Part shown: positions 27,306-28,861 of the stretch, in pieces | Position numbering within the stretch: the first letter of the stretch is position 1 | Layout: each line of letters starts with the position of its first letter | Origin: a virus | Lineage: Duplodnaviria; Heunggongvirae; Uroviricota; Caudoviricetes | Direction: 5' to 3' (one strand) | DNA length: 34,776 nucleotides | IMG/VR virus record: IMGVR_UViG_3300028991_000022 | Made by a program: the position numbers and the translations under genes | The notes under the pieces: generated by a model | Seen by the model: only the letters and a program-made list of their open reading frames with translations | Told to the model about the DNA's origin: nothing | Database searches by the model: none

Positions 27306-27803
27306 CTACATCTGATATTTTTTATCTCTTAAAGATTCATAAATCCGTTGACAAGTCACTCCTGCGATGTAGCGTTTGTCAGCAATTTCAGCATAAAGCT
27401 GAGCTTCTGCTGCAATATCTCCGAGCATGTTGGTGAGCATTCCTTCGGCGGCTTTGGTTGTTTTGCCTCTGACGGCAGCGGCAAGATTTGCGGTATGCTG
27501 CGCTGCGTCAAGGCGTATGGCATATTTTGTTGCTTCGGCACGCAGCTGGTTAACACTATCAGACAGATCAGCAGCCCTGGCAGAAATTTCAGCGGCTTTC
27601 TGTTGTGCATCTTTAACAGCCTCATCACGGGATATACTTCGCCCCTGTTCAATTATTCGAGCAGCAAATTGGACATTTACCTCTTGAGATAATTCGGCAG
27701 CATCACGCTCCGCCCATTTTTTTTGCCATCCTCTGTCGCTCCAGACATTACCTACGACAAATCCTACCAACACGAGCAAAATCACCGTGAATATCTGATT
27801 CAC
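27306..27803 (-). CDS. Rz: i-spanin (Rz-like)
   Basis: 165-aa ORF with an N-terminal transmembrane segment ([18 protein letters not shown]) and a coiled-coil periplasmic region; immediately downstream of the endolysin gene, with an embedded +1 frame lipoprotein ORF. Confidence 0.85.
27356..27610 (-). CDS. Rz1: o-spanin (Rz1-like) lipoprotein embedded in the +1 frame of Rz
   Basis: Embedded ORF with a signal peptide and lipobox ([23 protein letters not shown]) followed by a Pro-rich mature part ([21 protein letters not shown]). Start could instead be the Met at 27625. Confidence 0.7.
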
Positions 27804-28333
27804 TGTTCTATCCCCCAGCAGGTTAATGCACTCTCCTGGTCACGACGAATAACCTGACCGTAACAATTATTTGAACGAATGCGGCAATCACGTCCACCGT
27901 CCTTTATCCACCAGCGAATCGCCTCGCATGCGCCTTTACGATCACCGGCATTAAGCCGCTTATAAAACGTCGACGGAAAACACTTACCAGGGCCAATGTT
28001 ATAGGGACAGAATGACGCGATACCGGCTTTCTGTGGCTCGGTCAGTGGAACTTTTATATTGCGCTCCACCCATGCCAGCGCCTTATCACGCTCAATGGCG
28101 TTGACCTGGTCGCATTTTTCCTTCGACAGTTTCATATTGGGAAAAACGTTTTTTCCATCCACCACTGTGGCACCCCGACAGATGGTCCATATGCCAGAAC
28201 CATCGCGGTATGCCATTGTGTGGTTACCTTCTTTTTCGTCCAGAAACTGGTCAAGTATCTGAGGAGCAGATGCGCCAGCACCAATCAGCGCCAGAACGGC
28301 AGCCGACAGGCCGTATCTGATTTTTGTGTTCAT
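27800..28333 (-). CDS. R: SAR endolysin (phage lysozyme, GH24-like)
   Basis: 177-aa ORF with a Gly/Ala-rich weakly hydrophobic N-terminus ([19 protein letters not shown]-like) and E-x8-D-x5-T catalytic spacing ([16 protein letters not shown]); resembles phage 21 R and K-12 prophage lysozymes. Confidence 0.9.
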
Positions 28334-28641
28334 AGATATTTATGATGAGGACGCTCGTGCTTATTGGCAGGATTTTCAATCTTAAAGGAGTACTGATGCT
28401 GCAGATAAGACTCAACTTTTTCTGACAATTTTTCTGCTACTTCCAGGAAGACTTGCCGGACGCTCATTCTGGCTGCTGCCTCATAAAACTCCAGCGCAGC
28501 TCCTTCAACACGGTCCATGGCGACATCCAGGCCAAAAATTTCACCGTCAAAGCGTTCTTTGTCCTGTAAGGCTACAGTTACCGTAACTTTATTCTCAAAA
28601 TTACGGACTCCTTTCACAACCAGTTCATAGTCTTGAGTCAT
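28330..28641 (-). CDS. ydfR: DUF1327 family protein (YdfR-like), between holin and endolysin
   Basis: 103-aa ORF; same size and position as ydfR of the K-12 Qin prophage (between essQ and the lysozyme gene). Identified from memory of family and context. Confidence 0.6.
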   Translation of the reverse strand: MTQDYELVVKGVRNFENKVTVTVALQDKERFDGEIFGLDVAMDRVEGAALEFYEAAARMSVRQVFLEVAEKLSEKVESYLQHQYSFKIENPANKHERPHHKYL

Positions 28642-28645
28642 TGGA

Positions 28646-28861
28646 TTACTCTCCTCTCGCAGCCTTACGCCTGTCTTCTTTAATCTTGAAATAAAGATTT
28701 GTCAGGTACGTCAGCAGGCCAAATACCAGGCTACCCAGCACACCTATTGCTGCCCACTGTGAGGGCGTGACTTTATCGAGCAGCTGTAAAAACCAGTAGC
28801 CAGCACTGCCTGCGGAGGTGCCGTAGGCAATGCCTGTTGAAATTTTGTCCATGGATTTCAT
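28646..28861 (-). CDS. S: Pinholin, phage 21 S-type, with dual start (antiholin S71 / holin S68)
   Basis: From ATG 28859-28861: [71 protein letters not shown]. The MKSM dual-start motif and two transmembrane segments match phage 21 S21; strong SD GGAGGTG upstream. Confidence 0.9.

What the first reader, a model, noticed from the sequence alone, without database searches (positions are those of the whole stretch)
27306..28861. Phage-21-type lysis cassette with an extra DUF1327 gene between holin and endolysin
The holin begins MKSMDKIS, the dual-start motif of the S21 pinholin (antiholin from Met1, holin from Met4). The lysozyme has a Gly/Ala-rich SAR-type N-terminus, and Rz carries a +1 embedded lipoprotein Rz1, so this is the pinholin/SAR route rather than lambda canonical holin/soluble endolysin. 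A 103-aa DUF1327 protein is intercalated between holin and endolysin, where canonical cassettes have nothing, so it is plausibly a lysis-timing or lysis-inhibition accessory.
Basis: partly seen in the sequence, partly recalled or inferred. Interest (0 to 1): 0.5.

Follow-up and report, generated by a model that had tools for sequence, protein, structure and literature searches.

The report
Qin-type prophage lysis cassette with ydfR
This is the ordinary, already annotated lysis gene block of a Qin-like E. coli prophage (pinholin, YdfR, membrane-tethered lysozyme, spanins); the extra gene is the known ydfR, an optional passenger whose role in lysis is unproven and which other evidence ties to RNase E and RNA.

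Summary
On the minus strand at 27306-28861 lie a 71-aa phage-21-type holin (MKSMDKIS), a 103-aa DUF1327 protein, a 177-aa phage lysozyme with a Gly/Ala-rich N-terminal anchor, and an Rz-like spanin with an embedded +1 lipoprotein. All are tightly packed or overlapping.

It is not new. The block is 100% identical in many E. coli genomes, where RefSeq annotates it essD-ydfR-rrrQ-rzpQ. The DUF1327 protein matches K-12 YdfR at 101 of 103 residues. ydfR-like DNA occurs in 3647 of 5426 complete E. coli genomes.

The lysis-accessory reading is not supported, though it is not excluded:
- About three quarters of phage records with this holin type lack DUF1327.
- An identical pinholin works with YdfR (mEp460) and without it (ev099).
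- Yersinia prophages carry DUF1327 genes between tail genes I and J, outside any lysis cassette.
- YdfR has no membrane segment.
- It evolves about 4-5 times faster at nonsynonymous sites than its neighbours.
- A 2026 study found it co-purifies with the RNase E catalytic half and with RNA.

Most likely YdfR is an optional late-operon passenger acting in the cytoplasm. Low interest.

The parts
28646..28861 (-). S21-family class II holin (pinholin), 71 aa, with dual-start motif MKSM (Met1 and Met4); RefSeq name essD/essQ
   Evidence: PF04971 at E 5.5e-36 and phrog_20/9876 'holin'. It is 65/71 identical to K-12 EssQ. TMD1 is 60% Gly/Ala/Ser/Thr, and only TMD2 exceeds a 17-residue Kyte-Doolittle mean of 1.6.
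28330..28641 (-). ydfR, DUF1327 protein, 103 aa. It is cytoplasmic. Its N-domain (1-77, three beta strands then a long helix) is acidic; its C-tail is basic with low prediction confidence.
   Evidence: PF07041 at E 1.1e-51. It is 101/103 identical to K-12 YdfR. AF2 N-domain model has pLDDT 88. No TMD: maximum 17-residue Kyte-Doolittle mean is 0.66. pI is 4.6 for the N-domain and 9.3 for the tail.
27800..28333 (-). RrrQ-type phage lysozyme, 177 aa, with a predicted signal-anchor-release N-terminus. Catalytic E35/D44/T50 spacing as in the T4-lysozyme/R21 family.
   Evidence: PF00959 at E 6e-24. R21 structure 3hde/3hdf aligned over 9-174 at E 1e-16. It is 176/177 identical to K-12 RrrQ. The ASA-P motif has Pro at +1, which by established knowledge of signal peptidase I disfavours cleavage (inference).
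27306..27803 (-). Rz-like i-spanin (RzpQ, DUF2514), 165 aa, GTG start overlapping the endolysin stop
   Evidence: PF10721 at E 3.6e-38 and phrog_312 'Rz-like spanin' at E 4e-58. N-terminal TMD with a 17-residue Kyte-Doolittle mean of 2.72.
27356..27610 (-). Embedded +1-frame o-spanin lipoprotein (Rz1 / RzoQ homologue), 84 aa, lipobox LTSC, Pro-rich mature part
   Evidence: phrog_11621 'Rz-like spanin' at E 3.4e-8. Collinear with the annotated K-12 rzoQ.

Best explanation
The region is the late-operon lysis cassette of a Qin-like lambdoid prophage of E. coli, and it lyses by the pinholin/SAR route.

How lysis works (inferred from the phage 21 paradigm):
1. The S21-family holin and its Met1 antiholin isoform accumulate in the inner membrane.
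2. The RrrQ lysozyme is exported by Sec and stays tethered and inactive through its weakly hydrophobic N-terminal anchor.
3. Pinhole formation collapses the proton motive force and releases the lysozyme.
4. The Rz/Rz1-type spanin pair then disrupts the outer membrane.

The intercalated gene is the known ydfR. It is translated from the same late mRNA, in the slot just after the holin. Its product is a soluble cytoplasmic protein. It is an optional, moron-like passenger of late operons rather than a component of the lysis machinery. Its conserved N-terminal domain most likely acts on a cytoplasmic host target. The only experimentally supported candidate is the RNase E catalytic half and/or RNA, so it may modulate RNA turnover late in infection.

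Shown here or in the cited papers: gene identities, operon packing, dispensability across phages, non-lysis locations of family members, and co-purification with RNase E and RNA. Inferred: the lysis mechanism, by homology to phage 21, and the physiological role of YdfR.
For: Cassette identity:
- Pfam, PHROG and PDB assignments.
- 100% identity to E. coli loci annotated essD|ydfR|rrrQ|rzpQ.
- K-12 Qin has the same order, including rzoQ.
- 99.9% identity to phage mEp460_ev081, and the arrangement is present in phages HannyBb, Tritos, 2H10 and mEp460.

YdfR as an optional passenger:
- S21-type holin occurs in 441 phage records; DUF1327 occurs in 100.
- ev099 has S directly followed by RrrD, and Min27 has S directly followed by R with the same 4-nt spacer.
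- The pinholin of mEp460 (+YdfR) is identical to that of ev099 (-YdfR).
- DUF1327 members passing Pfam's threshold lie after tail gene I in Yersinia prophages (L095, L097-L099) or after a lambda-type Rz (L096, L100).
- C-terminal tails are variable, giving proteins of 103 to 329 aa on a conserved 77-aa N-domain.
- N-domain dN/dS is about 0.3, against 0.06-0.15 for the holin and 0.01-0.07 for the endolysin.

Cytoplasmic action:
- No TMD or signal peptide.
- YdfR residues 1-72 gave two-hybrid signals with RNase E 1-597.
- Strep-YdfR co-eluted Rne1-598 and DNase-resistant nucleic acid (PMC13232886).
Against: - In Escherichia the gene is always immediately downstream of an S21-type holin with a fixed 4-nt spacer (90 of 90 loci). 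That is what one would expect of a functional partner of the holin.
- The RNase E association was shown only by two-hybrid and by co-purification from lysate, without a nuclease control, so it may be bridged by RNA.
- Over-expression changed few transcripts and did not affect growth.
- The N-domain is acidic (pI 4.6), which is unusual for a direct RNA binder.
- The Keio ydfR mutant scored as envelope-leaky in a CPRG screen (PMC3879167 supplement). That could reflect loss of a lysis inhibitor rather than read-through into rrrQ.
Confidence: 0.55

Rival explanations
1. YdfR is a cytoplasmic lysis-timing regulator. It would bind the basic cytoplasmic C-tail of the pinholin, or the cytoplasmic face of the SAR endolysin, and delay or sharpen triggering. 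This would be analogous to the cytoplasmic antiholin RIII of T4 or to LydB of P1.
For: - Strict S-ydfR-R synteny in Escherichia, with a fixed 4-nt junction and translational-coupling geometry.
- An acidic N-domain (pI 4.6) facing a strongly basic holin tail, [13 protein letters not shown].
- Another family member lies directly after Rz/Rz1, still within a lysis cassette (L096, L100).
- Precedents exist for soluble antiholins (PMC8385771, PMC9025707).
- The Keio ydfR mutant scored CPRG-positive.
Against: - DUF1327 is absent from about 77% of phage records with this holin type.
- An identical pinholin is used with and without it.
- The holin cytoplasmic tail is unchanged while DUF1327 diverges to 46% identity.
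- The Yersinia members lie in the tail module.
- No similarity to any PHROG of the lysis category.
- The antiholin function is already supplied by the Met1 isoform.
- The K-12 late operon is silent under standard conditions, so the Keio phenotype is more simply explained by kan-promoter read-through into rrrQ (inference).
Confidence: 0.25
2. YdfR is a host-interaction or conflict protein, such as an anti-defence factor or a superinfection or competitor-phage exclusion factor. Its variable C-terminal modules would reflect an arms race, and its late-operon position would be incidental.
For: - Faster nonsynonymous evolution than its neighbours.
- Modular, swapping C-terminal tails.
- Moron-like mobility between late-operon slots, with a convergent partner ORF in the Yersinia-type loci.
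- Narrow host range: Escherichia, Shigella, one Salmonella-labelled cluster and Yersinia.
Against: - No hit of YdfR or its long variants to PADLOC defence models; the only hit was a marginal E 0.005 on one variant tail.
- No own promoter detected.
- No expression in the lysogen-like K-12 state.
- No experimental hint.
Confidence: 0.13
3. The ORF has no selected function and merely hitch-hikes between two essential genes.
For: Many frameshifted or truncated variants occur in E. coli prophages, for example P0036, P0045 and P0138. Over-expression gave a minimal phenotype.
Against: - dN/dS is below 1 in every pair where it could be computed, with conservation of a 77-aa fold across Escherichia and Yersinia at 38-46% identity.
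- The fold prediction is confident, pLDDT 88.
- The gene is retained in viable phages.
Confidence: 0.07

Closest known systems
E. coli K-12 cryptic prophage Qin: essQ-ydfR-rrrQ-rzpQ/rzoQ
   Same: Same gene order, the same overlaps, and the same downstream cspI-ynfQ-ynfN-gnsB genes. Identities to the window: YdfR 101/103, RrrQ 176/177, EssQ 65/71, RzpQ 148/165.
   Different: The window belongs to a more complete Qin-like prophage that has terminase, portal, capsid and tail genes. It carries two TolA-domain lipoprotein genes upstream of the holin, where K-12 has cspB/cspF.
Phage 21 lysis cassette S21-R21-Rz21/Rz1 (pinholin/SAR paradigm) and its DLP12 / ev099-type relatives
   Same: A class II holin of the same Pfam family with the MKSM dual start, a homologous SAR-type lysozyme, and two-component spanins with an embedded o-spanin.
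   Different: The endolysin is the RrrQ type: 177 aa, distantly related to R21 at phmmer E 1e-16. The i-spanin is of the DUF2514 family rather than PF03245. ydfR is inserted between S and R, whereas in ev099 S and RrrD abut.
Stx-phage lysis cassettes (933W/Min27 type: S-R-ant-Rz-bor; Stx1a/Stx2c type: S-DUF1327-R-Rz)
   Same: The same holin and endolysin families, at 79-82% and 88-89% identity. Non-lysis passenger genes sit inside the cassette: ant in Min27, and long DUF1327 proteins in the Stx1a/Stx2c phages.
   Different: The Stx-type DUF1327 proteins are up to 329 aa, with an N-domain only 46% identical. Stx2a phages almost always lack the gene: 2 records with DUF1327 against 124 with the holin.
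Soluble or accessory lysis regulators: T4 RIII, P1 LydB, Mu releasin
   Same: Small accessory proteins encoded with holin or endolysin genes that tune lysis (PMC8385771, PMC9025707, PMC9239132).
   Different: No sequence or profile similarity was detected; YdfR hits only PHROGs of unknown function. No functional data link YdfR to lysis. A direct pairwise comparison with RIII or LydB was not run.
Phage-encoded modulators of host RNase E (T7 gp0.7, T4 Srd, phiKZ Dip; recalled from general knowledge, not tested here)
   Same: A phage-borne small protein that associates with RNase E (YdfR: PMC13232886).
   Different: No homology was tested. YdfR is encoded in a late lysis cassette rather than among early genes. 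Its effect on RNase E activity is unknown, and over-expression barely changed the transcriptome.

Membership tests
S21-type pinholin (class II holin, PF04971) | Sequence membership in the P21 holin S family | tested here: met
   PF04971 at E 5.5e-36, 122.8 bits against a cutoff of 26.
S21-type pinholin (class II holin, PF04971) | Dual-start motif giving a longer antiholin (Met1, with an extra Lys) and the holin (Met4) | tested here: met
   The protein starts MKSMDK. The motif is as described for S21 71/68 (PMC9636201). Use of both starts was not tested.
S21-type pinholin (class II holin, PF04971) | Two TMDs, with TMD1 a weakly hydrophobic SAR-like helix | tested here: met
   TMD1 (8-27) is 60% Gly/Ala/Ser/Thr, and only TMD2 reaches a 17-residue Kyte-Doolittle mean of 1.6.
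S21-type pinholin (class II holin, PF04971) | Forms small heptameric pinholes that depolarise the membrane but do not release cytoplasmic endolysin | not testable with these tools
   Requires experiment.
SAR endolysin (R21 / P1 Lyz type) | T4-lysozyme-family muramidase domain with the E-8-D/C-5-T catalytic triad | tested here: met
   PF00959 at E 6e-24. E35, D44 and T50 are read from the sequence, and the protein aligns with R21 3hde.
SAR endolysin (R21 / P1 Lyz type) | N-terminal weakly hydrophobic, Gly/Ala-rich, uncleaved signal-anchor | tested here: met
   Residues 7-25 are 58% Gly/Ala/Ser, with a maximum 17-residue Kyte-Doolittle mean of 1.69. The region aligns with the R21 SAR region from residue 9. 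Non-cleavage is inferred from Pro after ASA.
SAR endolysin (R21 / P1 Lyz type) | Sec-dependent export, membrane tethering and PMF-dependent release | not testable with these tools
   Requires fractionation and energy-poison experiments.
Two-component spanin, embedded architecture | i-spanin with an N-terminal TMD and a periplasmic coiled-coil domain | tested here: met
   phrog_312 'Rz-like spanin' at E 4e-58. The TMD at residues 1-23 has a 17-residue Kyte-Doolittle mean of 2.72.
Two-component spanin, embedded architecture | o-spanin lipoprotein gene wholly inside the i-spanin gene in the +1 frame, with a lipobox | tested here: met
   27356..27610 lies inside 27306..27803. Lipobox LTSC. phrog_11621 at E 3.4e-8. 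K-12 rzoQ is the homologue.
DUF1327 / YdfR family (PF07041) | Sequence membership | tested here: met
   173.5 bits against a cutoff of 25, over the full-length model. The protein is 101/103 identical to K-12 YdfR.
Antiholin / lysis regulator (functional class) | Homology to a known antiholin or lysis-inhibition family | tested here: not met
   All five PHROG hits are of 'unknown function'. There is no Pfam hit other than DUF1327.
Antiholin / lysis regulator (functional class) | Obligate co-occurrence with its holin | tested here: not met
   DUF1327 implies the holin in Escherichia (90/90), but the holin occurs without DUF1327 in about 77% of phage records. Yersinia members are not next to any holin.
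Antiholin / lysis regulator (functional class) | Changes lysis timing when removed or over-produced | not testable with these tools
   Requires phage genetics.

The most novel reading that the evidence does not exclude
YdfR-family proteins could be a new class of late-expressed, cytoplasmic phage effectors that dock on the RNase E catalytic domain. They might protect the long late transcript, or couple RNA decay to the lysis clock. A second possibility is a pinholin-specific soluble antiholin. In either case the swapping C-terminal modules would set the specificity.
Probability: 0.2. Interest if true: 0.5.

Novelty: already known. Interest (0 to 1): 0.2.

Why it matters
As a finding it matters little. 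The arrangement is present in E. coli K-12 itself and in about two thirds of complete E. coli genomes, and annotation pipelines already name it.

The residual value is that ydfR remains a gene of unknown function. It sits in one of the best-studied gene blocks in phage biology and is abundant in Stx1a and Stx2c phages but nearly absent from Stx2a phages.

Showing either of two things would add a small but real piece to lambdoid phage biology: that YdfR tunes lysis timing and hence toxin release, or that it manipulates RNase E. This analysis narrows the options. YdfR is dispensable for the pinholin/SAR route, it is mobile between late-operon slots, and it has an experimentally reported cytoplasmic partner.

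Tried and rejected
- Sequence search of PDB with the family profile found nothing below E 0.2.
- Remote homologues. An exhaustive phmmer over 1.84 billion representatives gave only 55 hits. One of them, a 3128-aa repetitive protein (P0149), was judged spurious.
- Defence and annotation libraries. PADLOC and NCBIfam gave no meaningful hit for YdfR or its long variants.
- Internal promoter or terminator that would make ydfR an independent transcription unit: none was found inside the cassette.
- Host of the divergent loci by DNA search in the phage collection: no match. It was resolved instead by protein names, which point to Yersinia.
- Co-variation of the holin cytoplasmic tail with DUF1327 type or presence: none. 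The tail is essentially invariant.
- The 2014 envelope screen. The ydfR mutant is listed as a hit in the supplement only. I consider kan-cassette read-through into rrrQ the simplest cause, but could not test this.
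Full report
**What is there.** The reported interval holds five genes, all on the minus strand.

| Gene | Coordinates | Size | Key evidence |
|---|---|---|---|
| Holin | 28646..28861 | 71 aa | Starts MKSMDKIS; PF04971 'Bacteriophage P21 holin S', E 5.5e-36 |
| DUF1327 protein | 28330..28641 | 103 aa | PF07041, E 1.1e-51 |
| Lysozyme | 27800..28333 | 177 aa | PF00959 |
| Rz-like i-spanin | 27306..27803 | 165 aa | DUF2514; phrog_312, E 4e-58 |
| Embedded o-spanin | 27356..27610 | 84 aa | +1 frame; lipobox LTSC; phrog_11621; homologue of K-12 rzoQ |

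The genes are packed as one translational unit. Four nucleotides separate the holin stop from the DUF1327 ATG. DUF1327 and the lysozyme overlap as ATGA, and the lysozyme and Rz overlap as GTGA. No promoter-like or terminator-like site lies inside the block.

**The pinholin/SAR reading.**
- The holin has the MKSM dual start described for S21 71/68 (PMC9636201).
- Its first TMD is weakly hydrophobic and rich in Gly/Ala/Ser/Thr, and its second TMD is normal.
- The lysozyme aligns to the solved phage 21 SAR endolysin (3hde, 3hdf; E about 1e-16) from residue 9 onwards, so the alignment includes the anchor region.
- Lysozyme residues 7-25 are 58% Gly/Ala/Ser.
- The E35/D44/T50 spacing of the family is present.
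- The literature predicts the same route for the near-identical Stx-phage cassettes (PMC8136144).

Export, tethering and release were not and cannot be tested here.

**It is already known.**
- The 1.8-kb block is 100% identical in many E. coli chromosomes, where RefSeq annotates it as essD, ydfR, rrrQ and rzpQ. At least 80% of it is present in 2095 of 5426 complete genomes.
- The same order occurs in the cryptic prophage Qin of K-12.
- The window's DUF1327 protein differs from K-12 YdfR at two residues, G37D and M59R.
- ydfR-like DNA is found in 3647 of 5426 genomes.
- Sequenced phages carry the arrangement too: mEp460_ev081 at 99.9% identity, plus HannyBb, Tritos, 2H10 and mEp460, where it is annotated 'YdfR family protein'.
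- The surrounding genes mark the window as a fairly complete Qin-like prophage. They are relBE, hokD, rem, ydfU, rusA, Q, two tRNAs, two TolA-domain genes, then cspI, ynfQ, ynfN, gnsB, terminase and portal.

**Anatomy of the DUF1327 family.** The family is very small.
- It has 257 clusters at 90% identity among 5.8 billion proteins, and 55 representatives among 1.84 billion.
- In a scan of one genome per species it appeared only in Escherichia and Shigella, plus two MAGs labelled Veillonella parvula and Bacillota. I take the MAG hits to be mis-binned Escherichia prophage DNA, because they are 83-98% identical to the E. coli gene; this was not checked.
- One 90% cluster is labelled Salmonella enterica, and a divergent branch is in Yersinia.
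- Members share an N-terminal domain of about 77 residues. It is predicted with confidence (pLDDT 88) as three antiparallel strands followed by a long helix.
- The N-domain is followed by unrelated C-terminal tails, giving proteins of 103, 104, 114-116, 174-176, 206, 287 and 329 aa.
- The window protein has no hydrophobic segment (maximum 17-residue Kyte-Doolittle mean 0.66). Its N-domain is acidic (pI 4.6) and its short tail is basic.
- The N-domain is under purifying selection, but a weaker one than its neighbours. dN/dS is about 0.3 (range 0.2-0.65), against 0.06-0.15 for the holin and 0.01-0.07 for the endolysin.

**Is it a lysis gene? Evidence for.** In Escherichia-type loci the position is invariant. 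In 90 of 90 loci examined, an S21-type holin lies immediately upstream with the same 4-nt spacer, and a PF00959 endolysin lies downstream.

**Is it a lysis gene? Evidence against.**
- The reverse implication fails. 441 phage records carry the holin type, but only 100 carry DUF1327.
- In ev099 the holin abuts an R21-type lysozyme. In Min27 it is followed, after the same 4-nt spacer, by the RrrQ-type lysozyme.
- The pinholin protein of mEp460 (with YdfR) is identical, residue for residue, to that of ev099 (without).
- The holin's cytoplasmic tail does not change with the type or presence of DUF1327.
- The family is not confined to lysis cassettes. Four loci of the Yersinia branch pass Pfam's threshold (52 and 36 bits for the two scanned). 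They place the gene directly after tail-assembly gene I and before J.
- Two further loci place it after a lambda-type Rz/Rz1.
- Three of these six loci share a convergent 98-99-aa partner ORF, which suggests a mobile two-gene insert.
- YdfR matches only PHROGs of unknown function, none in the lysis category.

**Experimental clues from the literature.** Gopel et al. (RNA Biol 2026, PMC13232886) reported four relevant results:
- They recovered YdfR(1-72) three times in a two-hybrid screen.
- They found signals with RNase E 1-597.
- They co-purified FLAG-Rne1-598 and DNase-resistant nucleic acid with Strep-YdfR.
- Over-expression had almost no effect on the transcriptome or on growth.

No nuclease control was done for YdfR, so the contact may be bridged by RNA. 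The same paper notes that the gene cluster is silent under standard conditions.

The Keio ydfR mutant appears among the CPRG-positive, envelope-leaky hits of Paradis-Bleau et al. 2014, in the supplement only. The operon is silent and the kan cassette reads into rrrQ, so I think ectopic SAR-endolysin expression is the simplest cause. This is my inference and is untested.

**Verdict.** The cassette is an ordinary, already annotated Qin-type pinholin/SAR-endolysin/spanin block.

| Reading of the DUF1327 gene (ydfR) | Confidence |
|---|---|
| Optional, mobile late-operon passenger; soluble cytoplasmic protein whose only reported partners are RNase E and RNA | 0.55 |
| Cytoplasmic lysis-timing modulator, supported by the strict Escherichia synteny | 0.25 |
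| Host-conflict protein | 0.13 |
| No selected function | 0.07 |

Novelty: already known. Interest: low.

Noticed in passing
window 29113..29508 (-) and 29659..30087 (-): Two tandem predicted lipoproteins (lipoboxes VAGC and IIGC) carry a TolA C-terminal domain. They hit NCBIfam TolA models at E 1.6e-14 and 5.8e-31; the full-protein scores fall below the curated cutoffs, except that the 142-aa protein passes TIGR02794 (75.6 vs 59.45 bits). RefSeq names them tolA / TolA C-terminal domain protein. They occupy the Q-to-S moron slot where Stx phages carry stx, and could act as decoys for TolA-dependent colicins or filamentous phages.
   Followed up: partly
window 31085..31161 (-) and 31271..31344 (-): tRNA-Arg(tct) and a CAT-anticodon tRNA lie just downstream of the Q antiterminator gene (31488..32309). 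ARAGORN calls the second one Met; RefSeq calls it Ile in the identical prophage.
   Followed up: no
window 26729..26944 (-): A cspI-like cold-shock protein gene lies immediately downstream of Rz, followed by ynfQ, ynfN and gnsB homologues as in K-12 Qin.
   Followed up: no
window 28970..28987 (-) and 28896..28923 (-): A terminator-like GC hairpin with a T-run, and a weak sigma-70-like site, lie just upstream of the holin start. Counts in the region are not above shuffled expectation.
   Followed up: no
phage collection: DUF1327 tracks Stx-phage lineage. Records with DUF1327 against records with an S21-type holin are: Stx1a 41 vs 47, Stx2c 15 vs 17, Stx2a 2 vs 124.
   Followed up: partly
L097 3749..4048 (-), L098 3749..4048 (-), L100 1469..1765 (-): The Yersinia-type and post-Rz DUF1327 genes are followed by a homologous convergent 98-99-aa ORF with no Pfam or PADLOC hit. 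This suggests a mobile two-gene module.
   Followed up: partly
window 27306..28861 versus K-12 L094 5031..6586: Mosaic divergence from K-12 Qin. ydfR differs at 2 of 312 nt, both nonsynonymous. The holin differs at 29 of 216 nt, rrrQ at 19 of 534 (1 aa change) and rzpQ at 30 of 498.
   Followed up: no
L002 3161..4150 (Stx2a-converting phage Stx2_95): A 329-aa DUF1327 protein sits between S and R. Its roughly 215-residue C-terminal extension matches no Pfam, NCBIfam or PADLOC family.
   Followed up: partly
NZ_CP091673.1 (hit H1): In strain KKo009 the otherwise identical cassette is interrupted by an IS3-family element.
   Followed up: no
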